Assembly (NCBI GenBank): GCA_002305475.1
Contig: DBRB01000019.1
Location: 56,022-120,021 of the forward strand
Source of the DNA: a candidate division WWE3 bacterium UBA1379
GTDB taxonomy: Bacteria > Patescibacteriota > WWE3 > UBA101185 > UBA10185
DNA: 64,000 nt
Reading direction: 5' to 3'
In this document: positions 10,087 to 63,880 of the stretch, in pieces
Layout: each line of letters starts with the position of its first letter
Position numbering within the stretch: the stretch's first letter is position 1
Position numbers and translations under genes: made by a program
The notes under the pieces: model-generated
What the model saw: the letters and a program-made list of their open reading frames with translations, nothing else
The model's database searches: none
What the model was told of the DNA's origin: nothing

Positions 10087-10272
10087 TTATGCTTCTACAG
10101 TTTCCTCAGCAGGCTTTGCCTGTCTAGATAGCTTCAGGATATAGGAAAATCCTGCAAGCAAGATCACAGCTCCGACAAATACGAAATACATATTACCGGT
10201 TTTCTGCGACAACATCAGGAAAAATGTACCTCCAAAGGAAGTGAAATAAATAAGGATTCTTTGTAGAGACAT
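10087..10272 (-). CDS. Small predicted membrane protein (61 aa, two hydrophobic helices)
   Basis: ORF between rpsG and fusA. Two ~20-aa hydrophobic stretches (ILIYFTSFGGTFFLML; YFVFVGAVILLAGFSYIL). Followed by a perfect hairpin AAGGCTCCC-TTTC-GGGAGCCTT at 10050-10072. Coding status unverified. Confidence 0.35.
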   Translation of the reverse strand: MSLQRILIYFTSFGGTFFLMLSQKTGNMYFVFVGAVILLAGFSYILKLSRQAKPAEETVEA

Positions 10273-10439
10273 ATATTAGATTTTTTCATCTTCCACAGTA
10301 TAAAAAAGGGGAAAATGATACTCCTTAAAAATAGATGCGACCAAGCATCAATTTACAACAACCCGCAGCTGATGCGGAGGATAATAGCGGTTAGCATGTT
10401 CATACATGCAAATGGGTGAACGTATAGTTCACGGATAAA

Positions 10440-10907
10440 TTAGAAACGACCGAAATGGGCGAATGCTCGGTTGGCTTCAGCCATCTTGTGGGTGTCATCT
10501 CTTTTCTTAATCGCATTCCCGACACCTTCTTTTGCATTCTTCAGTTCTTCGTAGAGTTTTTCTTCCATGGCTTTACCTCGCCTATTTCGTGCTGCACCTA
10601 TAATCCATCTGATAGCCAATGCTTCGGATCTGTCATGCTTGACAGGAGTAGGAACCTGATATGTGGCTCCGCCAACTCTTCTGGAACGCACTTCCTGTTG
10701 AGGCATTACATTCTTTACTGCTTCTTCAAACATCTGCAAAGCAGTCTTTTTGTCTTCCGCCAGTCTGCTGATAGCTCTATAAACAATATTTCGTGCCAAG
10801 TTTTTTTCCCCATCCAACATTACCACATTTATCATGCGGCTGACTGTTTTGGATTTGAAAACCGGATCCACTTCAACTTGTCTTTTTTGTACTTTTTTAC
10901 CTCGCAT
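10440..10907 (-). CDS. rpsG: 30S ribosomal protein S7
   Basis: 155 aa. …DPVFKSK.V…INV.M.DGKK…A.RIVY.A… N-terminal and …RW… C-terminal S7 blocks. Follows rpsL. Confidence 0.95.
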   Translation of the reverse strand: MRGKKVQKRQVEVDPVFKSKTVSRMINVVMLDGEKNLARNIVYRAISRLAEDKKTALQMFEEAVKNVMPQQEVRSRRVGGATYQVPTPVKHDRSEALAIRWIIGAARNRRGKAMEEKLYEELKNAKEGVGNAIKKRDDTHKMAEANRAFAHFGRF

Positions 10908-10912
10908 ATGTT

Positions 10913-11326
10913 TTAAGCTTTAGGCTTCTTGGCTCCGTAAACCGATCTGGAAGTTTTTCTGTTCTGTACTCCCTGCAGATCAAAGGAACCTCGAACAATT
11001 GTATACTTGATGCCGGGCAGATCCTTGACTCTACCCCCGCGGACTAGAACCACGGAGTGTTCCTGCAGATTATGTCCTTCACCGGGAATATAGGCTGTAA
11101 CCTCCCTTTTGTTGGATAAACGCACACGCACAACTTTTCGCAAAGCTGAGTTAGGCTTTTTCGGAGTCTGAGTTTTTACCTGTAGACAGACACCCTTTTT
11201 AAAAGGAGAGTCATGCTTAATTGCTACACGCTTTCTGGTATTGTATACCTCCGTCAAAGCTTTAGCCTTAGTCTTTTTATTTTTTGCTTTTCTACTTTTT
11301 CTTAATAATTGGTTAATTGTCGGCAT
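10913..11326 (-). CDS. rpsL: 30S ribosomal protein S12
   Basis: 137 aa. [10 protein letters not shown]…[26 protein letters not shown]…[33 protein letters not shown] is a near-canonical S12. Confidence 0.97.
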
Positions 11327-11349
11327 TTAATAATCTTTACAAACTTCTT

Positions 11350-50660: not shown

Positions 50661-50839
50661 ATTAATTTTTATCGGGCGTTTATTTTTAGCAGAATATTCC
50701 TATGTAACTATAGGATAAGTAAATACCTTTCTTCATTTCTTCAAGACAGGTGATTATATCAAATCAAAACTATAGGGTCAATGCTTTAATTTGGCGCTTA
50801 TCCCATGACGTCACGTAGATAGTCTGTTATAGTGTTTAT

Positions 50840-51730
50840 ATGCAGGATAGATTTACCTATAAAGAATTCTTGAAAAAGTATAAAGATGATGACATCTGTC
50901 TTGAGGAAATCAAAAATCTGCGCTTCCCTGGTGGCATTACCTGCTCTTCCTGCAAAAAGATCACCAACCACTACCGTATAAAAAGCAAAAAAGTCTATTC
51001 ATGCGAATTTTGTGGAACTCAGGTGAGTCCTTTAGCAGGAACAATCTTCCATAAATCCTCCACGTCATTACAAGACTGGTTTATGGCAATCTACCTTATG
51101 ACTCAAACGAGAAGCGGCACCTCTGCTAAGCAACTACAGCTCATGCTTGGTGTTACCTATAAAACAGCGTGGAGAATGTACAAACAAATTAGAACCCTCA
51201 TGGCTGAAAATTCCGTCACTCCTCTTAATGGAGATGTTGAAATAGATGAAACATACATAGGCGGAGAGGGAATGAATCGGAGATTTAAACCACATTTTAA
51301 CGAAATCCCCAAAGAAGCTGTTATGGGCATGCTCCAAAGGGGTGGAAAAACATATCTTAAACATATTAAAGGAACTGGCAAATGGTATTTGATCGAACAA
51401 ATCAAAACTCATGTTGACCCAGTTGCAAGGCTTATCACCGATGAACTCGCTGCTTACAGAAATCTACCCAAACATGGTTACACGCTTCACGATGTTGTAA
51501 ACCACTCAGAAACGTATGTGGCTGGAGGTATACACACCAACAATATCGAAAACGTGTGGTCTATTATCAAGCGAGGAATATACGGAGTCTACCGAAATGT
51601 TTCGAAAAAATACCTGCAAGCCTATATTGACGAATACGCCTTTAGGTTTAACTACCGCAATCAAGATGAAAATATGTTCTACACACTTCTCAGACAAGTG
51701 GTTAACGTGAGGTTGGTTTCAGTTTTTTAA
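50840..51730 (+). CDS. IS1595-family (ISXO2-like) DDE transposase with N-terminal zinc ribbon
   Basis: 296 aa. CSSCKK…CEFCG zinc ribbon. DDE-domain region. C-terminal …KYLQAYIDEYAFRFNYRNQ matches the IS1595-family …YL(D/Q)E(F/Y).FR(F/Y)N.R signature. ~80-85% identical to ORF 61462..62355. Confidence 0.8.
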   Translation: MQDRFTYKEFLKKYKDDDICLEEIKNLRFPGGITCSSCKKITNHYRIKSKKVYSCEFCGTQVSPLAGTIFHKSSTSLQDWFMAIYLMTQTRSGTSAKQLQLMLGVTYKTAWRMYKQIRTLMAENSVTPLNGDVEIDETYIGGEGMNRRFKPHFNEIPKEAVMGMLQRGGKTYLKHIKGTGKWYLIEQIKTHVDPVARLITDELAAYRNLPKHGYTLHDVVNHSETYVAGGIHTNNIENVWSIIKRGIYGVYRNVSKKYLQAYIDEYAFRFNYRNQDENMFYTLLRQVVNVRLVSVF

Positions 51731-51851
51731 CACCAACCGATTTTTTTAATATGTCTTCAAAAGGTTTTATCTCCTCTTTGAGGTTGTTTTCTTTCTTTAG
51801 GTTTTCCATTTCTTGAGTAAAAGCCTTTTTCTTCTGGTTAATAGATTTCAT
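51704..51851 (-). CDS. Small conserved antisense ORF at the IS1595 3' end (~49 aa), copy A
   Basis: Hand-translated MKSINQKKKAFTQEMENLKKENNLKEEIKPFEDILKKSVGVKKLKPTSR. Overlaps the transposase 3' end convergently. A paralogous ORF is present in IS copy B with conserved residues (QEME.LK, KKLKP.SR). Confidence 0.35.
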
Positions 51852-51854
51852 ATT

Positions 51855-54800
51855 TTATTTATTCTTCTTTTTTAATTTTACAACTATAACCACCAGAATA
51901 ACTATAACAAAAGTTAAGATTCCGATAATTCCATATGATAATGGTGAGATTGAAAGTGGTTTTTCTTGGACGGTAACATTAAGAGCAAACTCCTTAACAT
52001 CTCCCTCTAGATTTATTGATTGTTCACCTACAAATCTGCCGTAGGCAATAATGACTCGGTGGTCACCTGGTTCTACATTATAAAATTCTGCGATACCATC
52101 GCCATCTGTGGTAGTTTCTTGGACTTTTGAGTGCATTGTAACTTTGGCTCCGACTACTGCATCGCCTTTAGTATCAGATACTTTTACTTTGACTTTATAT
52201 CCTTCAGCCTTATCAATAATTTCCGTAGACTTTTCCTGATCCTCTTGACTGTTATTACAATTTATTTTGAGTTCCCAACCACTATTGAGATTATTTGATG
52301 ACCCAAGTGAAGGGTACTTGCCTTTGTTTTGTTCAATTATCTCCTTGTATTTATTGCCGTCTCCCAGTTTCTCCTGAGCTATCGACCACAAACTATCACC
52401 TGATTTGACTGTATATGTTTGACAAGAATTAGCTTGAGTTGACTTCTCTTCTGCAATTGATGTTAATTCAGAATTTGTTATCTCTAAATTGTTTGCAGAA
52501 ACATAACCCCAGGTTTTGGCTGAGATTTCTTGGGACCAATTACCAGCGGCACAGCCATTACCGGCCCTAATCCTAAAGTAGTATCTTGTATTAGGTGAAA
52601 GAGACTTAACCAAATATTCTCTTGTGCCTTTATCTCCAATTGTTGTTGCTCCCCAAATATATTTCCCTGGTTCGGTGCCAAACTCCAGGGCATAGTGTTC
52701 GACTGGGTCACTAGCAGAACCAAATTGCAATAAAATAGAATCGGTGCCTCTGGCAGTTGCTCCCCAGAGTAGCGGTGTACTTCCTGGCGCAGTTTTATCA
52801 CAACTAGGGGCGGAAGCAGAAGAATTACTGCTTGAGGAAGAATCTGAACTGTTGGCATTGATCGTAACTGTGTTTATCGTATCTGTACCACTAGAGGAAT
52901 AGGCGGACGAATTTTCTGCCAGGTCAGCCGATTTGACTCGAAAATACCAGGTTCCATCAGCAAGAGCAGTAGAATGGGTATATGAATTTGTTGTTGAAGT
53001 GTCTGTATTTGAATCACAACCTGTAAAACCAGAGTTAGAACACCACTGAACTGAATAGGGGGAAGTAGACAAACCGGAACCGGTATCAGTTGATGCTGTC
53101 CAAGACCAGGTTGGGGTATTGTCAGTGGTTAATGAGGCAGTCGATGGAGTTCCGGGAGTGGTAGGTGCAGTTGTATCTAAGGTAAACGCTCCGGTATTGT
53201 AGGATGAACCCTGATTTGTTAACGAGTCTCTATACTGCACATATACTGTCCTTGATCCTTCAGTAGTTCCACAGCCGTAAGCTGCAGCTCCCGGCTTGAT
53301 ATCAAAATCAGTTTTGGGAGTAGCATACGCTTCCCAGGCAGTCCAGGTGGCATTGTCGCAAGAAAAGCGCATCTGCGCTCCGGTTACACCCACCCCCGCA
53401 TCGGCAATGGTTAATGCAAGGGAGGGAGTATTATCGTTGGTTGGATCAGTTGCCTGAATGATTGTCCCTGTCGGTCCGGTCGTATCAAAATTTGTAGAAT
53501 CACTGACAATACCTGATTCATTTCCCAGTGCATCCTTCAGTTTTGCGCTGATTGTCTTTGCTCCGTTTATTATGCTGCAGCCTGTTGCTCCTGTAGTGAT
53601 GTCAAAAGAGGAAATGGTATCAGAGTATGCCATCCAGGCAGACCAGTTAGTGCCGCCGTTACAGGAGAAAGCAGCATGCGTCGGTGTACCTGTCTGGGTT
53701 ATCGCAATTGAAGGAGTAGAATCATTGGTGTATCCTCCAGTGTCTGTAATAGCAATAGAGGTTAAGGCAGGTCCTGTGACGTTCCAGGTTACAGAATTAT
53801 CTGAAGTTGTTGATGCATTATTAGGATTGCCGGCTGCGTCATGGGCTTTATCTGCAGCAACACTTACCGTAACTGTTCCTGATCCGGTCATTCCCGATAC
53901 TGCCACATTGTACGTCGTTCCTGATCCCGTAACTGTCGCTGTGGTTGCCCCGGCTGTCCCTCCTAAAGTAACATCACCGGTGGTAAAGTCAGAAACAGAC
54001 TCTGAAAATTCAACAGTAAAATTAATCGGTGAGACATTGGTTGGATCTGACTGTCCCACAGCCTGGTTGATGGTTACATCAGGATTAGTAGTATCAACCG
54101 TCAGTGTCCCTTCTGATTCTTCACTTTCATTACCTGCCAAATCTATGGCTTTGACAAAGAAGTTGTAAATGCCTTCTGCCAGGTTGGTAACCACATTAGT
54201 TAATGCTGTTGTCCCTGAGGTAATTGCTGACCCTGTTGTCCTCCAGGCATACTGCAATACACCTGACACTGCATCGGTCGCCGCCGACCAGGTCCAAGTT
54301 TGCGAAGTCTGGTTGGTTGGAGAGGCAGGTGTAGGTAAAGGAGTGCCAGGTGTACTTGGCGCTCCGGTATCCACTTTGACAGTATTAGCTCCAGTGTAAG
54401 TTGCTTGTTGAGATAGATTATCTGAAACAAGGTGGCGATATTGATAGCAGTTTCCTGAACTAACATCAGTATCTATTAAATTTGGGTAGCTGCCGCTAGG
54501 AGAGATAGCTGAAAAGCTACCGTAAATAGTACATATTCCTAAAATTAAGGGCGCAGATCTTCTCTGAATAATTCTTGATGAGGTATTTACTCCGGAGCCT
54601 GTGCCGTCTGAACCGTCTGCAACAGTTAAAGAAACGGAAGCTATCGTATAGTAACCATCAGTGTAGGTCATTGATCCTCCTGTCGGAGCAGTCGTGTCAT
54701 AAACTGTTGAATCAGAAGCAGTAGATGACTCATTACCTGCTAAGTCCTTCAGCTTTGCAGTTATCGCTTTTGATCCATCGGAAGACGTACAGCCTGTTGC

Positions 54801-57800
54801 ACCATTAGTGACATCAAAAGAAGAGATAGTATCTGAGTATGCAATCCAGGAAGACCAGTTAGTGCCTCCGTTACAGGAGAATGCTACGTGAGTTGGTGAG
54901 CCTGAAGAATTTATGTTAATGGTCGGAGTTGAATCGTTCGTATAGCCCGAAGAATCAGAAATGGTAACTGAAGTTAACGTCGGTGCGGTTTCATCATTTA
55001 GCAGAATTATTGCATCCTCAGACTCTAAAGTAATCGAGCCTACTTCACTGCCGTCATTATATCTGGTTGTTGTTTCTAATCTCACAGCATCGGCAACTAC
55101 AGTACCTGTAGTTCCGGCTCCTGAAAAGACAACACTAGAAGTATCAGTAGTTGTGAAATTGTATGTTCCCAATTCATGCCAGCCTACTGAACCGGTTGTC
55201 TCGTTTAATGTAGTCGTATCTGTACTCCCTGCATGATTTATCGTTACGGAGACATTAGCCCGGTTACTTCCGCTTGGAGCAACCCAAGCATATACAACGT
55301 AATTCCCGTCATACTCAATCACCGGGTTATATGTGACAGTAGCTGCCGGATTACTGCCGGTAATAGTTTTAAAAGTACTGCCGAATTGGTTTGGATAGGA
55401 GGTGCTGGTAGATGCAGTATTGGTCCAACCGCCTGATACCACTGTGGTTGAGTCATCATCATCTACCCGGGTGTAATACAAGGGTGCCTGATTACCGTTA
55501 AGTTTTACATAATTTGTACCGAAAATGGATGTTAAATCAATTGTTTTTTCTTCCGGAGTAATATTTACCAACACTCTACCGTTATCGAATGGTCTAGTCC
55601 ATACTCCGATCGTCCCCTCTTGAAACTTAATGTCATCAAAATAAATATCTCCTTCGCTTGTACCAAGATCAATTGTTAACCTCCCTTGATTACTGTTATT
55701 TACCGTTCCTTTCATTATTAGATAAAAATGCTGCCATTCTGTAGTCAAATTAGCTCTTCCATACTTTAAATCAGAATCAAAAGCGGTATCATACTCCCAA
55801 GGATTGACTTGGCGTTGGACTCGCGTGCCACTTAATGTTCTTGCTGGATTAGCTTTTGCCCAGAAAGATAAAGTGTAATATTTATCCACTTCTATGGTTA
55901 AGTTGTTTTGGTAAAAAACAATATAATGCGATCCATCTCCAGCCGGATTCCCCGCAGGAATAGAGATATGCGCTCCCGGTCCGCCGCTAATTCCACCAGT
56001 AGCATCAATGCTTAATGGATTTACAGAGACTCCAGCTCCTGCGGCTTCCAGTGACCAATTGCTTGTTCCGCTGCTGAAATCTCCATTAGCAATATCATCC
56101 GTGCTGCTTAATGTTGGTATCGCTAATGCAGCATCTGCGGTTGGCTGACCTAAATAACCGGTGGTTGTGTAGTCTCCTTGTGTACCATACTCGTCATACC
56201 AATAATTATGTCCATATGAGTAAGGCGACAAATCATACGAAAAGACTCCGTTACCCATTAAAGCTGTAACCAGTCCAAACCTCAGTCTTTTGTAGTCACT
56301 ACCCGCCTCATTGATCATTGCGGTGGGCATATTAGTTACACCTGGCCCGTATTTGCTAGCTATAGCTGCTAAGGAGTTAGTGTTTAAATCCACGATCACA
56401 GGTGTTTGCTCGCCATTACTGATCCAATTTTTATAGTAATTAACGGTATCAATCCAAGGTGAAGGATAATAATCATCTATGTAATTTCTTACGTCATTTT
56501 CTAAAAATCTCCCATTTTCCCACGTACCATAGCTAATAGGTGAACCATTTCCAATGATAATTGCATTAGGGATGGCAGCTCTGATTTGAGCTAAAGCACT
56601 TTCCACTCCGGCTTGATAGGCTGCATTTAGAGTTGCTGTGTTATCTGCTACTCCATCGAGATCCGAATCAATATCTGGTCCGATGGTATTAGTTATAGTT
56701 GTGCCTACCATATCCCAAAACCACCCATCAAAAGCCAAATTGGTCTCCTCCCAATTGTCTACAGCCTGATTAACTAATTGCGTCACACAATAAGCATTAG
56801 TCAGGTTATACATAGGATTCCCGTATGTTCCATTAGTCAGTATTGTCCCTGAGGTATTTCTAAACATACATGGGTAACCAGGATCACCGGGTGAAGCGTT
56901 TAACCATGTACTGTAAACATTATGTGCAAGATAGGAACCGGCCTGGCCATACGTTAAATCCTGGGTCATCAATACTTTTGCCTTGGAATTAATTGCCCTA
57001 ATCGCATTTGCTCTAGATTGGGCGGTGGCATTACTTGACCAGGATATCCACGTATTGTAGCCTGCGAAATAATCATTTTGATACGACCCTCCGTAAGACC
57101 CCCATTGGTTATACAGCCTAGGATATCCAGCATCAAAGGTCCCCATCTTTCTTAACTGGGTGGTAACTTCCATGCTGTCGGCCGATCTTCCGGTAGCTGG
57201 AGTGTCATCGCATCGAACATAAAAGGTTCGAGTGGTAATAGTATTCCAATTACTAATTGAGGTACTGTGCGCAGTTGTTCCCTGACCAGTTGTAAAATTA
57301 TTGGTCATACTGGCATATGGAGTATCAGGCGATTCGCTATAACGGCAATTTGCATTAGCCCAGGTAGTTAAACTAAGGGTTGCAGAAGATGTATCTGAAC
57401 TTAATAAACGGTATGACGGTGACAATGAACTCAGTGCGGGGGTGTAATAATATGGTCCCAGATCAAGAGTGTCATTAGCAACATCTGCACTGTTATAACT
57501 CTTAACATGAAGATAATAGGGAATCGAAGAATCCGTACCTGTAGTCAAAGTTAAAGTACCGCTGGTCCATTGAGTTTCTGATTCATTCCATACATGGGTA
57601 GCTGAATTGTCCCATGCCCACCTGAGGTACTGGATCGCACCAGCACCGAAACCTGCGCCATTTGTTACCACATAAGTATTGGGCAAAGTATGTTCTATGG
57701 TTATATTTGACAAAGTTGGAGCCGTGGATAGGGTTGTATATGTAGCATTAGACGAGGGGGAAGAATTTCCATAGGAATTATAGGCGACAACTCTGCGAGT

Positions 57801-60605
57801 ATAGGAAGTATTTGCTGTTAAACTTGATTCTTCACAGTTAACCTCGTTACCCGTTCCGCTGGATGGGGAAGACACGGTGCAAACTGTATTATTTGATAAG
57901 TCCTTTACATAAAAACCATCTTCATTTGAAGCATTATCAATCCAGGACCATGTAATACTGTCGGAGTCAGCAGAATCTCCGGAAAAACTTGTTGGTGGTT
58001 GAGGAGTTGATGATTGAAAATCCAAAGAAAAGCTGGAAAGGTTTGGAGTATTCACTCCATCAGAACTTGCCAGCGTAACGTAATACTGTAAGTACCTATG
58101 ACCGTCAGTAACGCAGTTATTGGAGGAAATGTCGCTACCAGACGATATCGGATCACATCCCGAAAAAGCGGGAGCATCTGACATATCTGAATTATTCGAA
58201 GTACGTACCCTGACCGAGGTCGTAGTGTTGGCTGGCGTACCGGCAGTGTATGTTAAATTGTTCCAAGTCGTGGCCTGTTCAGTATCGAATATGGACGAAG
58301 TCAAAGTGCCACTAGATGCATAAGCTTTATATAAACTAATATCGTCAACATAAACAGTTTTCCCGCCTTTAATTTTTAAACCATAATCACGAGTAGCATT
58401 AGCACCGGTTAGTGTGCCCGTTAACAGATACCAACCGTCTCTTATAAGAGCGTAGGACGTGGTGACAGTACCGCCACTATAATAAAGCTCGGCATCGGAA
58501 TCAGTCACAGCCGAACCTGTTGTATATACACTGGCATTAAGTGTATATGTGCTTGTATCTCCCACATTTACTGATTGGCCAAAAACACCATTACCTTCTG
58601 CTGCGATAACTTTAGCAGACCCGGCACCATTAAGTTTGGTTGTGGCGTCCTGGCTTATTGTCGGTTCTTCCTGTGGGGCTGCATGTACCGGCCAGTTAAT
58701 AAAACCATCAAGAGTATTTTCTGAGTAAGTTGAGAAAAGACCATGATTAGTGTTATTGATGATACTGGAGTCGGAAACAGTAGCTGAACCTATAAAACTG
58801 TCGTTATAGTAAACATTGTATGTTGTGCCGTTTTTAATAACTCTCAACTTCCTTTCAGCCACATACCCTGAAGCATAATTAATGAGTGTCGTATAATGAC
58901 CATCCACCACTTTTTCCAGTTTAGTTCTGGATACGCCATCGTTGTAAACAATAACAAAATTCTGAGGGTTTGAGGTGCTATCAAGATTTAATACAATACC
59001 TGCTTGAGTGTAAGCAGTAACTGTAGGGAGTATTTCAATATTCACATCAGGTGTCGTGTACGAACTGGTTGCAAACAGGGAAGTCAAACTCATTTGTTTT
59101 AATGAAACATCATCATAATAATAGGTATGACCATTCGTTGCGGAAAACAGACCTACTTGGTAGGTAGTTTGTTCGTTTCCAGCAGTATTTATCGTATGTC
59201 CGGTACCTAATAGATTAGTAAAAGTTCCTGCGGATGTACTACGATCTACAATCTTTGTCCAAGGATTATTCTGCATTACCAATTGTGAAGACAAACCGTT
59301 CGTTCCATTAGACTGTACCCAAGAGTTATACAAATACCAATTTCCTAAACCAAGTGTTATGTTCTTTCGGATATTGCTCGCACTGGTAGTAGAAACACAT
59401 TTACTGGAATGAGTCGGACTATTATAAACAGCCGCATCCGATGTATAAGTACAATTACTAGTGCTCCAGCCTGTAGGGGGAGACCCTGTTTCCATATCGC
59501 CGTTAGTAATAAGTTCTGAGCCCAAAGTAGGTGAGTTTTTAGCTTTATTACCGGAAACAGTCCAGGTCGCCGTATCAAATGTCCATGTTTTTTGGGTAAC
59601 AGTTTGAGAATCAGGACCCGTGGTTTCAGTATTACCTAAAGCGCCATCTGTCCGGTTAAATGTATCATAGGCCAAAAGATTAACGGGTGTATCTTTTAAT
59701 GTGTATACTCTGATGTTATCCACTGTAAAAACTGCAGTCGTAGATTGTGCTTGAATCCATGGTCTCTCGTTGCTGTTACCCGTATTCGAAACCCACAACA
59801 AGGTCCAGTTTGTGTATGATCCCCCTTTGATATACCAAGCTAACCCGTTTGCTCTCATCATTGACGCTATCTGGTATGTTGTTCCAGCAGTATATGCACC
59901 GACATTTGAAACCGAAACGCCATTGATGTATATACCCAATATTCCACTGCTTAATAAATTCAAAGATTCAGTCATTACACCACTGGTTCCGGTACTCCAG
60001 CCAATAGATGCCCCACCATTGGTATCTGCTGGGGTAATATTAGCAATTAATGTCAAGCCGGAAGTTCGTGGTTGCGAAGCATAATAAACGCCGTCGTTTA
60101 CCGCGGCTCCGGTTGCAAAACTGAGAACGCCACCCGCAGTGATAGTAATCTTACTGTTGGTGTCAATAACAGTTCTTGTTCCTGGACCCGGTTCAGCTGG
60201 GGTGCCGTTAACACTCCCAGCATCCCTTTGAGTCGTATACTGATCGTATAATGCATAGCTTCCTGTACTCCACCCGGATATATCCGAGTCAAAAGTTGTA
60301 TTAGTTAGCTTTTCTACACCACCGAGTTTTATTTGGTTGGGTGTTGAGAAGACTACATTTGAAGATGTATTAAACTTGGTGACGTCAGAATAAGTAGTTT
60401 GGCCACTCCCGCCTACCCAGTTAGTCTGTGACCAGGGTGAGGATGCTGCGTAAACCGGAGTTACAAAAAGTAAAAAATTCTGAATAATTATATAAAAAGT
60501 GAGAAGAACAGTTGTTAGAAGATGGCGAAACCGTTTACTTAATCTTAATTTTGATAGAGAAACGGTAGCATTTTTCGATAATAATGATCTAATATCGAAG
60601 CCCAT
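51855..60605 (-). CDS. Giant cell-surface protein (2916 aa): N-terminal signal/TM, Thr/Ser-rich Ig/FN3-like repeats, possible glycoside-hydrolase-like TIM-barrel region, LysM, CarbopepD_reg-like domain, C-terminal TM anchor
   Basis: N-terminal hydrophobic LLTTVLLTFYIIIQNFLLFVTPVYA. Two ~100-aa near-identical internal repeats (…SDSSGYTNDSTPTININSSG…FSCNGGTNWS… and …TDTGGYTNDSTPSIAITQTG…FSCNGGTNWS…). FN3-like PTTPGTP…TWSW segments. LysM-like YTVKSGDSLWSIAQEKLGDGNKYKEIIEQN. GYKVKVKVSD…GAKVTM…TTDGDGIAEF (CarboxypepD_reg-like). C-terminal IIGILTFVIVILVVIVVKLKKKNK. Confidence 0.85.
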   Translation of the reverse strand: MGFDIRSLLSKNATVSLSKLRLSKRFRHLLTTVLLTFYIIIQNFLLFVTPVYAASSPWSQTNWVGGSGQTTYSDVTKFNTSSNVVFSTPNQIKLGGVEKLTNTTFDSDISGWSTGSYALYDQYTTQRDAGSVNGTPAEPGPGTRTVIDTNSKITITAGGVLSFATGAAVNDGVYYASQPRTSGLTLIANITPADTNGGASIGWSTGTSGVMTESLNLLSSGILGIYINGVSVSNVGAYTAGTTYQIASMMRANGLAWYIKGGSYTNWTLLWVSNTGNSNERPWIQAQSTTAVFTVDNIRVYTLKDTPVNLLAYDTFNRTDGALGNTETTGPDSQTVTQKTWTFDTATWTVSGNKAKNSPTLGSELITNGDMETGSPPTGWSTSNCTYTSDAAVYNSPTHSSKCVSTTSASNIRKNITLGLGNWYLYNSWVQSNGTNGLSSQLVMQNNPWTKIVDRSTSAGTFTNLLGTGHTINTAGNEQTTYQVGLFSATNGHTYYYDDVSLKQMSLTSLFATSSYTTPDVNIEILPTVTAYTQAGIVLNLDSTSNPQNFVIVYNDGVSRTKLEKVVDGHYTTLINYASGYVAERKLRVIKNGTTYNVYYNDSFIGSATVSDSSIINNTNHGLFSTYSENTLDGFINWPVHAAPQEEPTISQDATTKLNGAGSAKVIAAEGNGVFGQSVNVGDTSTYTLNASVYTTGSAVTDSDAELYYSGGTVTTSYALIRDGWYLLTGTLTGANATRDYGLKIKGGKTVYVDDISLYKAYASSGTLTSSIFDTEQATTWNNLTYTAGTPANTTTSVRVRTSNNSDMSDAPAFSGCDPISSGSDISSNNCVTDGHRYLQYYVTLASSDGVNTPNLSSFSLDFQSSTPQPPTSFSGDSADSDSITWSWIDNASNEDGFYVKDLSNNTVCTVSSPSSGTGNEVNCEESSLTANTSYTRRVVAYNSYGNSSPSSNATYTTLSTAPTLSNITIEHTLPNTYVVTNGAGFGAGAIQYLRWAWDNSATHVWNESETQWTSGTLTLTTGTDSSIPYYLHVKSYNSADVANDTLDLGPYYYTPALSSLSPSYRLLSSDTSSATLSLTTWANANCRYSESPDTPYASMTNNFTTGQGTTAHSTSISNWNTITTRTFYVRCDDTPATGRSADSMEVTTQLRKMGTFDAGYPRLYNQWGSYGGSYQNDYFAGYNTWISWSSNATAQSRANAIRAINSKAKVLMTQDLTYGQAGSYLAHNVYSTWLNASPGDPGYPCMFRNTSGTILTNGTYGNPMYNLTNAYCVTQLVNQAVDNWEETNLAFDGWFWDMVGTTITNTIGPDIDSDLDGVADNTATLNAAYQAGVESALAQIRAAIPNAIIIGNGSPISYGTWENGRFLENDVRNYIDDYYPSPWIDTVNYYKNWISNGEQTPVIVDLNTNSLAAIASKYGPGVTNMPTAMINEAGSDYKRLRFGLVTALMGNGVFSYDLSPYSYGHNYWYDEYGTQGDYTTTGYLGQPTADAALAIPTLSSTDDIANGDFSSGTSNWSLEAAGAGVSVNPLSIDATGGISGGPGAHISIPAGNPAGDGSHYIVFYQNNLTIEVDKYYTLSFWAKANPARTLSGTRVQRQVNPWEYDTAFDSDLKYGRANLTTEWQHFYLIMKGTVNNSNQGRLTIDLGTSEGDIYFDDIKFQEGTIGVWTRPFDNGRVLVNITPEEKTIDLTSIFGTNYVKLNGNQAPLYYTRVDDDDSTTVVSGGWTNTASTSTSYPNQFGSTFKTITGSNPAATVTYNPVIEYDGNYVVYAWVAPSGSNRANVSVTINHAGSTDTTTLNETTGSVGWHELGTYNFTTTDTSSVVFSGAGTTGTVVADAVRLETTTRYNDGSEVGSITLESEDAIILLNDETAPTLTSVTISDSSGYTNDSTPTININSSGSPTHVAFSCNGGTNWSSWIAYSDTISSFDVTNGATGCTSSDGSKAITAKLKDLAGNESSTASDSTVYDTTAPTGGSMTYTDGYYTIASVSLTVADGSDGTGSGVNTSSRIIQRRSAPLILGICTIYGSFSAISPSGSYPNLIDTDVSSGNCYQYRHLVSDNLSQQATYTGANTVKVDTGAPSTPGTPLPTPASPTNQTSQTWTWSAATDAVSGVLQYAWRTTGSAITSGTTALTNVVTNLAEGIYNFFVKAIDLAGNESEESEGTLTVDTTNPDVTINQAVGQSDPTNVSPINFTVEFSESVSDFTTGDVTLGGTAGATTATVTGSGTTYNVAVSGMTGSGTVTVSVAADKAHDAAGNPNNASTTSDNSVTWNVTGPALTSIAITDTGGYTNDSTPSIAITQTGTPTHAAFSCNGGTNWSAWMAYSDTISSFDITTGATGCSIINGAKTISAKLKDALGNESGIVSDSTNFDTTGPTGTIIQATDPTNDNTPSLALTIADAGVGVTGAQMRFSCDNATWTAWEAYATPKTDFDIKPGAAAYGCGTTEGSRTVYVQYRDSLTNQGSSYNTGAFTLDTTAPTTPGTPSTASLTTDNTPTWSWTASTDTGSGLSTSPYSVQWCSNSGFTGCDSNTDTSTTNSYTHSTALADGTWYFRVKSADLAENSSAYSSSGTDTINTVTINANSSDSSSSSNSSASAPSCDKTAPGSTPLLWGATARGTDSILLQFGSASDPVEHYALEFGTEPGKYIWGATTIGDKGTREYLVKSLSPNTRYYFRIRAGNGCAAGNWSQEISAKTWGYVSANNLEITNSELTSIAEEKSTQANSCQTYTVKSGDSLWSIAQEKLGDGNKYKEIIEQNKGKYPSLGSSNNLNSGWELKINCNNSQEDQEKSTEIIDKAEGYKVKVKVSDTKGDAVVGAKVTMHSKVQETTTDGDGIAEFYNVEPGDHRVIIAYGRFVGEQSINLEGDVKEFALNVTVQEKPLSISPLSYGIIGILTFVIVILVVIVVKLKKKNK

Positions 60606-60701
60606 AAGCGTAATCTTTCAGTAAAGATCTTACTCGGGCTTCGTGAGCCTCAAAACTCACAGGTAATTATCTTGTGAATTTGTAATTAAATACTAGTACA
60701 T

Positions 60702-61145
60702 TTAAGAAGAAAATTCAACTTCTTCACCTAGAAAAAAGGCGATTTCTTTGTTATTGTCCAAAAATGGCTCTATGTGAAGGCGTACATTATATGATTTACC
60801 GGATTTCGTTTTGTTTTGCAAATCTACGGTAACTGACTTTTTCATTATTAGCTTACTCCACATATTTTTGTAAAACGAATCAGGCATTTGTTTCCCCCAT
60901 ATAGATGGCTTTTTGCCAATCACTTCAGAAAGTGCATAACCTGTTACTTCTTCCATTTTTTTGTTGATGGAGAGAATAGTGCCGTTTTTGTCGGTAATAA
61001 TTATTTGGCGCTCAGCTTCCAAGTCAAAAGATGTGATTGAACCGCACCTATGGCATTTGATAGAAATTGCAGAAGAATATGTTTCTGAAGCTAATAATTT
61101 TTCGCATTTGCGACATCGATATTCCTTTTGTGATTTTGGATTCAT
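60702..61145 (-). CDS. Zinc-ribbon + PAS domain small protein
   Basis: 147 aa. CRKCEKL…CHRCGS zinc ribbon. PAS-like core IIITDKNGTILSINKKMEEVTGYALSEVIGKKPSIWG…VRLHIEPFLD. Confidence 0.6.
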   Translation of the reverse strand: MNPKSQKEYRCRKCEKLLASETYSSAISIKCHRCGSITSFDLEAERQIIITDKNGTILSINKKMEEVTGYALSEVIGKKPSIWGKQMPDSFYKNMWSKLIMKKSVTVDLQNKTKSGKSYNVRLHIEPFLDNNKEIAFFLGEEVEFSS

Positions 61146-61284
61146 TACTAGTAATTATAGTCTTTTATATCTGATTTTATTCATTTTCTTACGATTGTGG
61201 TATTTAGGAGATGTACTGATTGTGACTTTGGATAGTCTAATATTTTGCATATACGATAATTTGTAATGGTGGTATAGTATCCCC

Positions 61285-61420
61285 CCCTATATATAAGGAA
61301 TAAGAGGGGAAAGTAAAAATGAGAAATGCCTTAATATCGGTCTAAATCGAAATGTTTCATTACCTACCGGTAGGCTAATTTTACGTTACGTTAGGGGATA
61401 GGTACCTTTAATTTGGCAAT
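61285..61420. repeat. ~140-bp dispersed repeat, copy 1, with palindrome CCTACCGGTAGG and a tiny RBS-preceded ORF
   Basis: ~85-90% identical by eye to 63745..63880 (TAAGGAATAAGAGGGGAAA…ATATCGGTCTAA…TTACCTACCGGTAGGCTAATTTTACGTTACGT…GGGATAGGT.CCTTTAATTT). Confidence 0.8.
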
Positions 61421-61461
61421 TATCCCTTGACATCACGTAACTAATCTGTTATTGTATATAC

Positions 61462-62355
61462 ATGCAAGACAGATTTACCTACAAAGAATTCCTGAAAAAA
61501 TATAAAAATGATGATATCTGTCTTGAAGAAATAAAAAATCTTCGTTTTCCCGAGGGTATTAACTGTTCTTCCTGCAAAAAGATCACTAATCACTACCGGA
61601 TTAAAAGTAAAAAGGTCTACTCTTGTGAATTTTGTGGTACTCAGGTGAGTCCTCTGGCTGGGACGATTTTCCATAAATCTTCAACCTCTTTACAAGACTG
61701 GTTTATGGCGATCTACCTCATGACCCAAACAAGAAGTGGTACATCATCAGCTAAGCAGCTACAACGCATGCTCGGTGTTACCTATAAGACAGCATGGAGA
61801 ATGTACAAGCAAATTCGCACCATCATGGCTGAGAATTCAGTTACTCCACTAGATGGAGAGGTTGAAATAGATGAAACTTATATTGGTGGAAAAGGGATGA
61901 ACAGGAGGTTTAAGCCACATTTCAACGAAATTCCAAAAGAAGCAATAATGGGGATGCTGCAACGAGGTGGTAAAACGTATCTCAAACACATCAAAGGAAC
62001 TGGAAAATGGTATTTGATTGAGCAAATCAAAACCCACGTTGATCCAATTGCAAGACTAATCACTGATGAACTGGCGGCATATAGAAATCTACCTCAACAT
62101 GGCTATATGCTTCATGATGTAGTAAATCACTCAGAAACTTATGTTGTAGGTGATATTCACACCAACAATATTGAGAATGTCTGGTCGATTATCAAAAGAG
62201 GCATTTATGGAGTTTATCGGAATGTTTCCAAGAAATATCTACAAGCCTATATCGATGAATACGTATTTAGGTTCAACTGCCGCAATCAAGATGAAAATAT
62301 GTTTTACACACTACTGAGACAAGTAGTTAACGTGAGGATGGTTTCGGTTTCTTAG
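61462..62355 (+). CDS. IS1595-family (ISXO2-like) DDE transposase, paralog B
   Basis: 297 aa. Collinear with and ~80-85% identical to 50840..51730. Same zinc ribbon and …YIDEYVFRFNCRNQ C-terminus. Confidence 0.8.
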   Translation: MQDRFTYKEFLKKYKNDDICLEEIKNLRFPEGINCSSCKKITNHYRIKSKKVYSCEFCGTQVSPLAGTIFHKSSTSLQDWFMAIYLMTQTRSGTSSAKQLQRMLGVTYKTAWRMYKQIRTIMAENSVTPLDGEVEIDETYIGGKGMNRRFKPHFNEIPKEAIMGMLQRGGKTYLKHIKGTGKWYLIEQIKTHVDPIARLITDELAAYRNLPQHGYMLHDVVNHSETYVVGDIHTNNIENVWSIIKRGIYGVYRNVSKKYLQAYIDEYVFRFNCRNQDENMFYTLLRQVVNVRMVSVS

Positions 62356-62476
62356 TGATCACAGCTTTTTTCAAAACCTCTCCAAACGATTTTTCTTCTT
62401 CTATTAGTTTATCTTCTGTTTTTAATCTTTCCATTTCTTGAGCAAAGGATTTCCTTTTTTGATTTTGAGTTTTCAT
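62328..62476 (-). CDS. Small conserved antisense ORF at the IS1595 3' end, copy B
   Basis: Hand-translated MKTQNQKRKSFAQEMERLKTEDKLIEEEKSFGEVLKKAVITKKPKPSSR. Paralog of 51704..51851. Confidence 0.35.
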
Positions 62477-62480
62477 AATA

Positions 62481-63647
62481 TTATTTTCCGATAGCAATTA
62501 ATTCATATTCTTTTTCCAAGTCGTCAATTTGTATATCCAACCTTGCGGGAACCTGTTTAAGAAAAGTTGAAACACGCGTATTTGAGTTCATCGTCATGAA
62601 ATCGGATTGGCCACTTAAATCGGCCGCAGTTGCTAATGATGTACCCATTATTTTTGGCCAAGCATCATCACCAACATTCGATAATCGACGTCTTAATGCA
62701 TCCCAATATCTTGCCCCTGAGTAGTATGTTGTGTCTCTATGAGTTGCAACATCGTATGGAAGTGGATTATCCAAGAGATCTCTAAAGGAGGGGGATTTTC
62801 TTAGTTGCCTACCATCCTCGCCTAGAGCACCTGCAATACCTTCATATATTGGGTTATCGGATCCTAATTTCAGAAGTTCAATCAACGTTGTATCAGTAAT
62901 ACCATGGCTGCCTTCATGTTGTGCGGTAAGCAATAATTTATCAGTCATGCTTTGAGTTTCGCCTGCTCGAACTGCTCTAGCTGCATAAGAAAAATAATCA
63001 TGACCTCTTGGTTTATCGTGACGATGTAGTCGTGATCCCAAAATTACTCCTCGCTCATTAATTTTTGCCCATGCAGGAATTCTATCTAAAAGTGCTCCGA
63101 TAAAATTGAAGTCTTCCCAAACTTTCGGACTATCAAAGTGTGAAGGCAGTGCAACTACAAGAAACCCATCATTTTCATTGATTAAATCTGAATGTCTTTG
63201 GACAACATCCCCAACTATTTTTGCCTGAGTTTCAGATAAATATTTCTTTGCGTCTCGAAAATAGGAATTGTGTTTTCTTCTGTATGCTTGCATCCTTCCG
63301 ATGTACTTATCCATTGCGGCTAAGCAGGTATCTGCATTCCATGTAATCCCATTATCGACACCTTCAAATGTTGCAAACTCATCTTGCATTCTTAAGAAAT
63401 CTTTATGGGGAACGAAAACTCCACCTGATACGGTCTGAGGTTGCCACTCTGTACCACGAAGCTTACCCGCTCTAAACAAAGCCCCAATATGACCATGTAT
63501 TACGGAAAACAATGGGTTATCTGAGGCATCACCATGATGTAAGTCACGTAAAGCAACTTTTACTTCTAAATAATATGGCTCGAATTTAGGAGTTCTATCT
63601 AAAATACTTGATAATTTTTGTTGTTCCAAACTATCTAACATAATCAT
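62481..63647 (-). CDS. Hypothetical protein (388 aa) with an HExxH-like motif (HEGSH); possible metallopeptidase-like, GC-shifted cargo gene
   Basis: Long ORF abutting the IS copy B right end. Composition visibly GC-richer than neighbours. Only recognisable feature is …TAQHEGSHGITD…. Confidence 0.5.
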   Translation of the reverse strand: MIMLDSLEQQKLSSILDRTPKFEPYYLEVKVALRDLHHGDASDNPLFSVIHGHIGALFRAGKLRGTEWQPQTVSGGVFVPHKDFLRMQDEFATFEGVDNGITWNADTCLAAMDKYIGRMQAYRRKHNSYFRDAKKYLSETQAKIVGDVVQRHSDLINENDGFLVVALPSHFDSPKVWEDFNFIGALLDRIPAWAKINERGVILGSRLHRHDKPRGHDYFSYAARAVRAGETQSMTDKLLLTAQHEGSHGITDTTLIELLKLGSDNPIYEGIAGALGEDGRQLRKSPSFRDLLDNPLPYDVATHRDTTYYSGARYWDALRRRLSNVGDDAWPKIMGTSLATAADLSGQSDFMTMNSNTRVSTFLKQVPARLDIQIDDLEKEYELIAIGK

Positions 63648-63744
63648 CTGAATTATATCAGTTTAAGGATTCGTAAGTAGGATGAAGACTAATTTATATA
63701 AGCGAATACTGAATACTTTATTGAATCTCTTTTCACCTCTCCCT

Positions 63745-63880
63745 TATTTATAAGGAATAAGAGGGGAAAATGAAAATAACAATTGCCGTTATATCGGTCT
63801 AATTCGAAAATTCTTATTACCTACCGGTAGGCTAATTTTACGTTACGTCAAGGGATAGGTGCCTTTAATTTCGAATTGAA
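63745..63880. repeat. ~140-bp dispersed repeat, copy 2
   Basis: See 61285..61420. Sits ~100 bp upstream (on the minus strand) of the 388-aa gene. Contains the same CCTACCGGTAGG palindrome and a mini-ORF ending …ISV*. Confidence 0.8.

What the first reader, a model, noticed from the sequence alone, without database searches (positions are those of the whole stretch)
61285..61420. 140-bp repeated element with a perfect 12-nt palindrome CCTACCGGTAGG and a tiny conserved ORF, placed upstream of two different minus-strand genes
Copies at 61285-61420 and 63745-63880 are roughly 85-90% identical by eye. On the minus strand each lies ~100-140 bp upstream of a gene, the ZnR-PAS gene and the 388-aa HExxH gene. 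Each contains the perfect palindrome CCTACCGGTAGG (a dimeric TF operator candidate), a TTACGTTACGT direct motif, and an RBS-like AAGAGGGGAAA followed by an 8-10-codon ORF ending …ISV* (MRNALISV / MKITIAVISV). It could be a shared promoter/operator module that puts both cargo genes under one regulator, or a leader-peptide attenuator. Alternatively it could be part of an extended IS left end, since copy 1 abuts IS copy B, with copy 2 a solo remnant.
Basis: seen in the sequence. Interest (0 to 1): 0.55.

Follow-up and report, generated by a model that had tools for sequence, protein, structure and literature searches.

The report
Right end of cargo-carrying IS1595 transposons
The repeated 131-base element is the right-hand end of two neighbouring gene-carrying jumping genes in a candidate-phyla-radiation bacterium, and its inner 95 bases are a highly conserved DNA module that elsewhere sits beside conjugation (DNA-transfer) genes, so it may be a transfer origin the transposons have picked up.

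Summary
Window 61284-61414 and 63741-63871 are 87% identical, both carry CCTACCGGTAGG, and there are only two copies in the window.

Each copy is the right end of an IS1595-family transposon with passenger genes:
- 95-nt core (61280-61374; 63737-63831)
- 6-nt linker
- 26-bp right inverted repeat (IRR) matching the left inverted repeat (IRL) upstream of each transposase gene
- 8-bp target duplication TTTAATTT

This gives two tandem units, TnA 50793-61406 and TnB 61415-63863.

Relatives in other genomes have the same IRL…IRR ends, other cargo, and perfect 8-bp duplications: CGTTTTAA, AAAATTAG, ACAACTTA, GAAAAGGT, TAAGAAAA. TnB aligns end to end with one of them.

The TTACGTTACGT motif is part of the IRR. 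The tiny ORF is not conserved (in-frame ATG in 4 of 33 cores).

The 95-nt core also occurs without any IS in 26 of 32 outside loci. There it sits between a coupling-protein (T4CP) gene and a MOBC (Replic_Relax) relaxase gene. It has no indels and is better conserved than the neighbouring gene.

My best reading is a borrowed oriT-like cis site (inferred, about 0.4). A promoter/operator role is the main rival. The closest precedents are MTnSag1 and tISCpe8.

The parts
50785..50792 (.). 8-bp target-site duplication TTTAATTT, left flank of TnA
   Evidence: Same 8-mer directly outside all three transposon ends. A/B homology starts here.
50793..50818 (+). IRL of TnA (GGCGCTTATCCCATGACGTCACGTAG)
   Evidence: 19/26 match to the reverse complement of 61381-61406, and 21/26 to IRL-B.
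50840..51730 (+). Transposase A (296 aa), IS1595 family
   Evidence: ORF list. About 94% aa identity to transposase B, which hits Zn_ribbon_IS1595 and DDE_Tnp_IS1595.
51702..51851 (-). Conserved 49-aa Lys/Glu-rich small ORF, convergent with the transposase gene and overlapping its 3' end
   Evidence: Intact 46-49-aa ORF in every related unit examined. A/B homology stops exactly at its ATG.
51855..60605 (-). Passenger gene of TnA: 2,916-aa surface-type protein
   Evidence: ORF. Precomputed Pfam hits: Golvesin_C; fn3 and LysM (weak); Big_13 (faint). Lies between IRL-A and IRR-A.
60702..61145 (-). Passenger gene of TnA: 147-aa Zn-ribbon + PAS protein
   Evidence: Pfam Zn_ribbon_Com and PAS_9/PAS.
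61280..61374 (+). 95-nt conserved core, copy 1. Left block ends in …TATATATAAGGAATAAGAGGG, then an AT-rich spacer of fixed length, then ATTACCTACCGGTAGG.
   Evidence: nhmmer E 2.6e-24. Aligns without indels with 33 unique cores from other loci.
61381..61406 (+). IRR of TnA (…TTACGTTACGTTAGGGGATAGGTACC). 61375-61380 is a 6-nt linker.
   Evidence: Inverted complement of IRL-A 19/26, and 23/26 to IRR-B.
61407..61414 (.). TTTAATTT shared between the right flank of TnA and the left flank of TnB
61415..61440 (+). IRL of TnB (GGCAATTATCCCTTGACATCACGTAA). Contains the -35 of a promoter-like site for the transposase gene.
   Evidence: 22/26 to the reverse complement of 63838-63863. TTGACA-17-TATTGT at 61427-61455.
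61462..62355 (+). Transposase B (297 aa), IS1595 family
   Evidence: Pfam DDE_Tnp_IS1595 E 5e-35 and Zn_ribbon_IS1595 E 4e-9.
62327..62476 (-). Conserved 49-aa small ORF of TnB
62481..63647 (-). Passenger gene of TnB: 388-aa protein with an HExxH motif and no Pfam family
   Evidence: Its 87%-identical homologue is the cargo of the L006 unit.
63737..63831 (+). 95-nt conserved core, copy 2
   Evidence: nhmmer E 2.8e-24.
63838..63863 (+). IRR of TnB (…TTACGTTACGTCAAGGGATAGGTGCC)
   Evidence: Its terminal 15 nt (CAAGGGATAGGTGCC) are identical to the L006 IRR.
63864..63871 (.). TTTAATTT, right flank of TnB

Best explanation
**What it is (shown).** Each copy of the 131-nt repeat is the right terminal module of an IS1595-family transposon that carries passenger genes (a 'tIS').

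The unit layout is: IRL, transposase gene (+), a conserved 46-49-aa small ORF (-), variable cargo, a 95-nt core, a 6-nt linker, then a 26-bp IRR. It is flanked by an 8-bp target duplication.

The window holds two such units head to tail:
- TnA, 50793-61406, with cargo of a 2,916-aa surface protein and a ZnR-PAS protein.
- TnB, 61415-63863, with cargo of a 388-aa HExxH protein.

Both sit in the same TTTAATTT target.

The 'RBS' AAGAGGGG belongs to an invariant block of the core.

**What the core does (inferred).** The core is not needed for transposition. It is missing from one TSD-validated relative, and in another it is separated from the IRR by a cargo gene.

The core is a separate, portable cis-acting DNA module. 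In most of its occurrences in Patescibacteria metagenomes it is the intergenic region between a type IV coupling-protein gene and a MOBC-type (Replic_Relax) relaxase gene.

I think the most likely mechanism is an oriT-like site. One invariant block would be bound and the palindrome end nicked by such a relaxase. A transposon carrying it could then be mobilised between cells in trans, as shown for the IS1595-family elements MTnSag1 and tISCpe8.

**Probabilities.**
- Structural identity as a transposon right end: about 0.9.
- oriT-like function of the core: about 0.4.
- Promoter/operator function, not mutually exclusive with oriT: about 0.3.
For: **Ends and duplication in the window.** IRL/IRR complementarity is 22/26 (B) and 19/26 (A). 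TTTAATTT sits at all three outer positions.

**Independent insertions elsewhere with perfect 8-bp duplications.**
- L003: CGTTTTAA, 304-aa cargo on the other strand.
- L006: AAAATTAG.
- L022: ACAACTTA, with cargo between core and IRR.
- L038: GAAAAGGT, and L043: TAAGAAAA.
- L046: a further unit with new cargo.

**The whole unit moves.** TnB aligns 1-2449 at 87% with the L006 unit, which has unrelated flanks.

**Family.** The transposase has the IS1595 Zn-ribbon and DDE domains.

**The core outside any IS.**
- 30 metagenome loci and 3 genome loci carry it.
- In 23 of them a 257-aa gene starts 57-60 nt away. That gene hits Replic_Relax at E 7e-13.
- A T4CP gene (TrwB_AAD_bind, TraG-D_C) often ends 4 nt from the palindrome.
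- Replic_Relax equals the MOBC relaxase class (PMC5357655).
- The MOBC prototype TraX binds direct repeats 70-120 bp from nic (PMC12857230).

**Conservation of the core.**
- 95 nt with no indel in 33 unique copies.
- Two invariant blocks about 72 nt apart.
- More conserved than the adjacent relaxase gene, 0.83 vs 0.68 nt identity.
- No RNA structure beyond the terminal hairpins.

**Precedent.** MTnSag1 and tISCpe8 are IS1595-family elements with 25-bp IRs, 8-bp DRs, a circular intermediate for MTnSag1, an oriT, and mobilisation by Tn916 (PMC5704250).
Against: **Against the oriT reading.**
- There is no experimental or sequence link to any known oriT. The core has no match in PLSDB plasmids or in phages.
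- No relaxase or T4CP gene lies in the 64-kb window. The rest of the genome could not be searched.
- The position next to the relaxase gene is equally what a promoter/operator would show. Weak 9/12 promoter-like sites exist in the relaxase-linked copies.
- Twenty-four of the 95 core positions were fixed by my own search pattern, which inflates apparent conservation.

**Against the structural reading.**
- Three identical TTTAATTT copies need a second insertion into exactly the same 8 bp.
- A 33-nt exact repeat (61358-61390 = 63815-63847) makes the tandem arrangement ambiguous at k=31.
- The Logan contig L001 has a 27-nt terminal overlap, so a free circle of TnB would give the same graph.
Confidence: 0.85

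Rival explanations
1. The core is a portable promoter/operator. It would drive the minus-strand genes that follow it: cargo plus the small ORF in the transposons, and the relaxase gene elsewhere. The palindrome would be the operator of a dimeric regulator. This is not exclusive with the oriT reading.
For: - The core faces a downstream minus-strand gene in both window units, L006, L022, L038 and L041, and in all relaxase-linked loci.
- In units with no cargo between them it lies 46-100 nt upstream of the small ORF.
- Promoter-like sites are present in the relaxase-linked copies. L005 has TTTAGA-17-TATACT inside the core. L018 has TTGATT-18-GATAAT with the palindrome as the spacer.
- The invariant CTAA would be the TTAG of a -35.
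Against: - No sigma-70-like site on the minus strand in either window copy.
- The aligned -10 is TCATTT or TTATTT in IS-linked copies and lacks the key A2.
- In L003 the cargo gene is convergent with the core.
- A promoter does not explain 95 nt of indel-free conservation, two invariant blocks at fixed spacing, or conservation above that of the neighbouring gene.
Confidence: 0.3
2. The core is a subterminal transposase-binding or transposition-enhancing sequence, so the whole 131 nt is simply the functional IS end.
For: It lies immediately inside the IRR in TnA, TnB, L003, L006, L021 and L046, always in the same orientation.
Against: - Nothing similar lies inside the IRL.
- L043 is a TSD-validated relative with no core.
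- In L022 a 316-aa gene separates the core from the IRR.
- 26 of 32 outside loci carry the core with no IS1595 transposase nearby.
Confidence: 0.07
3. The two copies are miniature non-autonomous elements (MITEs) or solo IS remnants that happen to lie near the IS copies.
For: Small size. A terminal sequence related to the IS IR. Faint IRL-like similarity at the left edge of copy 2 (CACCTCTCCCTT), seen by eye.
Against: - No 8-bp duplication flanks the 131 nt alone.
- Each IRR pairs with an IRL 2.4 or 10.6 kb away, with matching TTTAATTT.
- TnB is colinear end to end with L006.
- The left edge of the shared similarity is the core boundary found in non-IS loci.
Confidence: 0.03
4. The element is a leader-peptide attenuator or a structured non-coding RNA.
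For: An RBS-like AAGAGGGG followed by a short ORF in both window copies. Local hairpins at both ends of the core.
Against: - An in-frame ATG is present in only 4 of 33 unique cores and is absent from the IS-linked L006 and L022.
- No Rfam family matches at E up to 10.
- The alifold consensus gives only two short terminal hairpins, about -7 kcal/mol on either strand.
- No terminator-like site.
Confidence: 0.03
5. The tandem arrangement is an assembly resolution of a repeat. The chromosome would hold only TnA, and TnB would exist as a 2,457-bp circle with an IRR-TTTAATTT-IRL junction.
For: A 33-nt exact repeat lies inside the two copies. The Logan contig L001 (same sample) runs 61362-63845 and has a 27-nt terminal overlap. 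MTnSag1 is reported to form circles (PMC5704250).
Against: The IRR of the independent TnB-like unit in L006 (CAAGGGATAGGTGCC) is identical to the one joined to copy 2 in the window. It differs from the one joined to copy 1. A repeat-bounded unitig gives the same terminal overlap without any circle.
Confidence: 0.1

Closest known systems
MTnSag1 (tISSag10, Streptococcus agalactiae) and tISCpe8 (Clostridium perfringens): IS1595-family mobilisable transposons
   Same: IS1595-type DDE transposase, about 25-bp terminal inverted repeats, 8-bp target duplication, AT-rich targets, and passenger gene(s) inside a small unit of about 2 kb. They also carry an oriT but no relaxase, and are mobilised in trans (PMC5704250).
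   Different: - There the oriT lies inside the resistance gene and may have arisen by chance. Here the candidate is a discrete 95-nt module homologous to the region next to MOBC relaxase genes.
- The host is Patescibacteria, not Firmicutes.
- Cargo is not antibiotic resistance, and one unit is 10.6 kb.
- An extra conserved small ORF is present.
- Neither mobilisation nor circles are shown here.
IS1595-family elements with passenger genes (tIS; ISNha5-type group of Siguier et al. 2009). Group details are from my own memory of ISfinder.
   Same: A single DDE transposase with an N-terminal Zn ribbon, IRs, an 8-bp DR, and passenger genes between the transposase gene and the far IR. The end sequence GGCnnTTATCCC resembles the 'nnnGcnTATC' ends I recall for the ISSod11 group.
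   Different: Subgroup membership was not tested against ISfinder. The transposase is at most 41% identical to annotated IS1595-family transposases on plasmids.
oriT2 of pAD1 with the MOBC relaxase TraX
   Same: The relaxase is of the same Pfam family (Replic_Relax, PD-(D/E)XK, N-terminal wHTH). In pAD1 the binding site is made of direct repeats located 70-120 bp from nic (PMC12857230). The core has ATAAGG/ATAAGAGG repeats about 72 nt from the palindrome. It lies between T4CP and relaxase genes, which I recall from memory is also the position of oriT2 in pAD1 (Francia & Clewell 2002).
   Different: No sequence similarity was found. No nic site is mapped. The window copies have no relaxase gene beside them.
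Relaxase-less oriT carriers (pOriT plasmids, iOriT islands)
   Same: A mobile element that carries only a short oriT and depends on a relaxase and mating pore encoded elsewhere (PMC11389934).
   Different: Here the carrier would be a DDE transposon in a phylum where conjugation itself is unproven (PMC12102498).

Membership tests
IS1595-family transposable element with passenger genes (tIS) | DDE_Tnp_IS1595 transposase with an N-terminal zinc ribbon | tested here: met
   Pfam PF12762 E 5e-35 and PF12760 E 4e-9.
IS1595-family transposable element with passenger genes (tIS) | Terminal inverted repeats bounding the unit | tested here: met
   IRL/IRR 22/26 (TnB) and 19/26 (TnA). The same ends are found in L003, L006, L022, L038 and L043.
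IS1595-family transposable element with passenger genes (tIS) | 8-bp target-site duplication | tested here: met
   TTTAATTT in the window. CGTTTTAA, AAAATTAG, ACAACTTA, GAAAAGGT and TAAGAAAA in five other loci.
IS1595-family transposable element with passenger genes (tIS) | The same unit is found at unrelated sites, which is evidence of movement | tested here: met
   TnB aligns 1-2449 at 87% with the L006 unit, which has different flanks and a different TSD.
Mobilisable transposon of the MTnSag1 / tISCpe8 type | A functional oriT recognised by a relaxase supplied in trans | not testable with these tools
   Only indirect evidence: the core is homologous to the T4CP-relaxase intergenic region of MOBC loci.
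Mobilisable transposon of the MTnSag1 / tISCpe8 type | A circular intermediate with abutted ends | tested here: inconclusive
   An IRR-8 bp-IRL junction exists at 61381-61440, and contig L001 has a 27-nt terminal overlap. A tandem insertion explains both.
oriT of a MOBC (Replic_Relax) relaxase | Lies beside the cognate relaxase gene, typically with the T4CP gene | tested here: not met
   Not met for the two window copies: no relaxase or T4CP in the window. Met for 23-26 of 32 homologous cores elsewhere.
oriT of a MOBC (Replic_Relax) relaxase | Repeats for relaxase binding plus an inverted repeat near nic, and stronger conservation than the flanking DNA | tested here: met
   Invariant block with ATAAGG/ATAAGAGG/CCCTTAT repeats, a 12-18-nt palindrome, fixed spacing and no indels. 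Core 0.83 vs gene 0.68 nt identity. These features are descriptive, not proof of nicking.
oriT of a MOBC (Replic_Relax) relaxase | Site-specific nicking and transfer | not testable with these tools
   Needs biochemistry or mating assays.
MITE / solo IS end | A short unit with both IRs and its own target duplication, and no transposase between the ends | tested here: not met
   No duplication flanks the 131 nt alone. Each IRR pairs with a distant IRL across a transposase gene.
Leader-peptide attenuator | A conserved short ORF plus alternative terminator/antiterminator hairpins | tested here: not met
   In-frame ATG in 4 of 33 cores. No terminator-like site and no extended structure.
Sigma-70-type promoter module | -35 and -10 hexamers with 16-18-nt spacing, facing the downstream gene | tested here: inconclusive
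   None on the minus strand in the window copies. 9/12 sites in relaxase-linked L005 and L018. Promoter rules for this phylum are poorly known.
Known structured RNA (Rfam 15) | A match to a covariance model | tested here: not met
   Only chance-level hits at E above 7 in the window region. None at the core in four other loci.

The most novel reading that the evidence does not exclude
The 95-nt core would be the origin of transfer used by the MOBC relaxase / coupling-protein modules of Patescibacteria, a site not yet described for this phylum. A clade of IS1595-family transposons would have captured it. That would make them relaxase-less, conjugatively mobilisable cassettes that shuttle surface proteins, peptidases and sensor genes between CPR cells. 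The sharp break of similarity about 8 nt beyond the palindrome, where different genes are found in different loci, would then mark the nic site and relaxase-mediated recombination.
Probability: 0.35. Interest if true: 0.75.

Novelty: new variant of a known kind. Interest (0 to 1): 0.55.

Why it matters
For annotation, the result turns an apparent regulatory repeat into the boundary marker of two transposons. It shows that 13 kb of this window is mobile cargo, including a 2,916-aa surface protein, a PAS sensor and a putative metalloprotein. It also defines a family of passenger-carrying IS in candidate-phyla-radiation genomes.

More broadly, whether the widespread type IV secretion systems of Patescibacteria ever conjugate DNA is an open question. 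A 2025 survey found few relaxases, mostly MOBC, and described no oriT (PMC12102498).

A 95-nt, indel-free, highly conserved sequence next to those relaxase genes, also spread on transposons, gives a concrete DNA substrate. It can be tested for relaxase binding, nicking and transfer in the now genetically tractable Saccharibacteria.

Tried and rejected
- **Extended IS left end.** Rejected. IS copy A has no such sequence on its left, and A/B homology starts at TTTAATTT.
- **MITE.** Rejected. No own duplication, and it pairs with a distant IRL.
- **Tiny ORF / leader peptide.** Rejected. In-frame ATG in 4 of 33 cores.
- **Known RNA family.** No Rfam hit. The consensus fold shows only terminal hairpins on either strand.
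- **Plasmid or phage origin of the core.** No blastn match in PLSDB or INPHARED.
- **Exact look-up of the 388-aa protein.** Not on record.
- **Empty site via the DHH gene.** The look-up returned only the same sample's contig, so no empty site was obtained.
- **Cognate relaxase or T4CP in the window.** None.
- **L038 test.** The IS-borne module of L038 does not resemble the upstream region of the Replic_Relax gene on the same contig.
- **Papers on pAD1 TraX and MTnSag1.** PMC3746933 and PMC1913403 are not held, so their details come from reviews.

Full report
**1. The observation.**

The repeat is real. Window 61284-61414 and 63741-63871 are 131 nt long and 87% identical. Blastn with relaxed settings and a profile search find no third copy in the window.

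CCTACCGGTAGG is exact in both copies, with 0.01 matches expected by chance. The TTACGTTACGT motif, the AAGAGGGGAAA stretch and the two mini-ORFs are present as described.

On the minus strand the copies lie 138 nt and 93 nt upstream of the 147-aa Zn-ribbon/PAS gene and the 388-aa gene.

**2. What the repeat is.**

The last 26 nt of each copy are the inverted complement of the 26 nt about 20 nt upstream of each IS1595-type transposase start codon. The match is 22/26 for unit B and 19/26 for unit A.

Directly outside each of these ends is the same 8-mer, TTTAATTT, at 50785-50792, 61407-61414 and 63864-63871.

The two transposase regions are homologous from exactly that 8-mer. The homology runs through the transposase gene and a 49-aa convergent small ORF, and stops at the small ORF's ATG.

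The window therefore contains two head-to-tail units:
- TnA, 50793-61406: IRL, transposase gene, small ORF, the 2,916-aa gene, the ZnR-PAS gene, repeat copy 1.
- TnB, 61415-63863: IRL, transposase gene, small ORF, the 388-aa gene, repeat copy 2.

The transposase carries Zn_ribbon_IS1595 and DDE_Tnp_IS1595. Its relatives are mostly from Microgenomates-type CPR bacteria.

**3. Independent confirmation from other genomes.**

| Locus | Source | Target duplication | Cargo and layout |
|---|---|---|---|
| L003 | NCBI GCA_052034705.1 | CGTTTTAA | 304-aa TAT-signal protein on the opposite strand, then the 131-nt module |
| L006 | 808-kb MAG contig | AAAATTAG | 87%-identical homologue of the 388-aa gene; colinear with TnB over positions 1-2449 at 87%, with unrelated flanks |
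| L022 | metagenome | ACAACTTA | 316-aa cargo gene inserted between the palindrome and the IRR |
| L038 | transposase 74% identical | GAAAAGGT | 407-aa cargo |
| L043 | transposase 66% identical | TAAGAAAA | 232-aa cargo, no core |
| L046 | another sample | not checkable (contig ends) | new 379-aa cargo, then core and IRR |

So the element is the right end of a family of passenger-carrying IS1595 elements. Cargo is exchanged freely among them. The 46-49-aa small ORF is a conserved second gene.

**4. The module has two parts.**

The 131 nt break down as a 95-nt core, a 6-nt linker, a 26-bp IRR and the 8-bp duplication.

Scans with patterns taken from the core found 3 genome loci and 30 metagenome loci. 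Only L006, L021 and L022 are IS-linked.

In 23 loci, a 257-aa minus-strand gene starts 57-60 nt from the left edge of the core. Three more truncated loci have the same leader. That gene is Replic_Relax at E 7e-13.

On the other side, often 4 nt from the palindrome, an approximately 870-aa gene ends. It has TrwB_AAD_bind and TraG-D_C domains, so it is a type IV coupling protein.

Replic_Relax corresponds to the MOBC relaxase class (PMC5357655). MOBC is the commonest relaxase class reported in Patescibacteria, frequently next to t4cp, and no oriT has been described there (PMC12102498).

**5. Properties of the core.**

- All 33 unique copies are exactly 95 nt, with no indel.
- There are two invariant blocks: CCCTTATATATAAGGAATAAGAGGG, with ATAAGG/ATAAGAGG direct and CCCTTAT inverted repeats, and ATTACCTACCGGTAGG.
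- The blocks are separated by about 50 nt of AT-rich, variable sequence of fixed length.
- Similarity ends within about 8 nt beyond the palindrome. Different genes are found there in different loci.
- For relaxase-linked pairs whose genes are 68% identical at the nucleotide level, the cores are 83% identical. Removing the 24 positions my pattern fixed still leaves about 77%.
- Consensus folding shows only short terminal hairpins on either strand.
- No Rfam family matches, and there is no match in plasmid or phage collections.
- A further hairpin between the core and the relaxase gene (GGAATGATTGTATCATTCC) shows two independent compensatory variants. It is not part of the IS-linked module.

**6. 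Mechanism.**

Shown: the 131-nt repeat is a transposon right end.

Also shown: the core is dispensable for transposition. It is absent from L043, separated from the IRR in L022, and absent from the IRL side. It is homologous to the T4CP-relaxase intergenic region of MOBC loci.

Inferred: the core is a cis-acting DNA site for the relaxosome, meaning an oriT or part of one.

The reasoning rests on four points:
- Its position.
- Its repeat-plus-palindrome architecture. The roughly 72-nt spacing recalls the 70-120 bp between the TraX binding repeats and nic in pAD1 (PMC12857230).
- The indel-free conservation.
- The precedent of MTnSag1 and tISCpe8. These are IS1595-family elements that carry an oriT and no relaxase and are mobilised by Tn916. 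A circular intermediate has been shown for MTnSag1 (PMC5704250).

MOBC relaxase TraX is also reported to catalyse oriT-specific recombination (PMC5714925). That would fit the gene exchange seen right beside the palindrome. This last step is speculation.

**7. The main rival.**

The main rival is a promoter/operator.
- For: the orientation toward a downstream gene is consistent in most contexts. Weak 9/12 promoter-like sites occur in relaxase-linked copies.
- Against: there is no such site in the window copies, the -10 is degraded in IS-linked copies, and the cargo in L003 is convergent.

The two roles are not exclusive, because oriT regions commonly overlap relaxase promoters.

**8. Caveats.**

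Three identical TTTAATTT copies imply that the second transposon inserted into exactly the duplicated 8 bp of the first. That would mean end- or hot-spot targeting. Alternatively, a circle was integrated.

The two copies share a 33-nt exact stretch. A short-read contig of the same sample runs from one copy to the other with a 27-nt terminal overlap. At small k, a free TnB circle plus a single chromosomal TnA would give the same graph.

The IRR of the independent L006 unit matches the join as assembled in the window, which favours the tandem. No empty site could be retrieved.

**9. Verdict.**

The fallback, IS sequence, is right in kind but wrong in geometry.

The element is a new variant of a known kind: an IS1595-family tIS whose right end carries a conserved module shared with MOBC mobilisation loci of Patescibacteria. 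Interest is moderate. It would be high if the oriT function were shown.

Noticed in passing
window 51702-51851 and 62327-62476 (minus strand); also L003 9808-9957, L038 6902-7042, L041 6896-7036: A 46-49-aa Lys/Glu-rich ORF (MKTxNQKxxSFxxEMxKLKKExxLKEEK…) lies convergent with the transposase gene and overlaps its 3' end. It is intact in every related unit, down to 64% transposase identity. It has no Pfam family. It may be a second IS gene, such as a regulator or accessory protein.
   Followed up: partly
window 61381-61440: The IRR of TnA and the IRL of TnB are abutted with exactly 8 bp (TTTAATTT) between them. This is the geometry of an IS circle or tandem-dimer junction. It implies either a second insertion into the same 8-bp target or integration of a circle.
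   Followed up: partly
L001 (Logan contig of SRR5321211 = window 61362-63845): The contig starts and ends inside the two repeat copies and has a 27-nt identical terminal overlap. That is compatible with a 2,457-bp circular form of TnB, or simply with a repeat-bounded unitig.
   Followed up: partly
window 61427-61455: A promoter-like site, TTGACA-17-TATTGT, has its -35 inside IRL-B and its -10 ending 6 nt before the transposase ATG. This suggests a leaderless or near-leaderless transposase mRNA. Unit A has ATGACG-17-TATAGT at the same place.
   Followed up: no
L018 3524-3580, L032, L024 (relaxase-linked loci): The hairpin GGAATGATTGTATCATTCC lies between the core and the relaxase start. It shows compensatory double changes: GGAGTGAT/ATCACTCC in L032 and GAAGTGAT/ATCACTTC in L024. 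It is absent from IS-linked copies.
   Followed up: partly
L008, L011, L016, L017, L019, L026, L028, L029, L036, L037: In these relaxase-linked loci, unrelated genes sit between the T4CP gene and the core. Examples are a 192-aa membrane protein, a Fic-like protein, EamA-like proteins and an AbiEii-like protein. The break in similarity falls within about 8 nt beyond the palindrome, as if this were a recombination or insertion hot spot.
   Followed up: partly
L027 8934-9127 (minus strand): Two cores lie in tandem, the second diverged (nhmmer E 2e-7), with no relaxase gene adjacent. L009, L015 and L020 also carry 'orphan' cores.
   Followed up: no
L038 (OBEQ011210077.1) 1268-12927: A related tIS (TSD GAAAAGGT) sits in a region that also holds a Replic_Relax-like gene, an IS1/IS240-like transposase, a MazE-Fic pair and a T4CP gene. 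This looks like a mobile-element-rich island. Its internal module does not resemble the relaxase upstream region.
   Followed up: partly
L041 7037-7283: A more distant IS relative has, in the same position, a diverged core homologue (76% over 76 nt to L022). The CCTACCGGTAGG palindrome is replaced there by a different one, TTATGTA-N6-TACATAA. No IRR was found within 7 mismatches.
   Followed up: no
window 53578-53777 and 54790-54989: A 200-nt direct repeat at 73% identity inside the 2,916-aa gene. It is probably a duplication of an internal protein domain.
   Followed up: no
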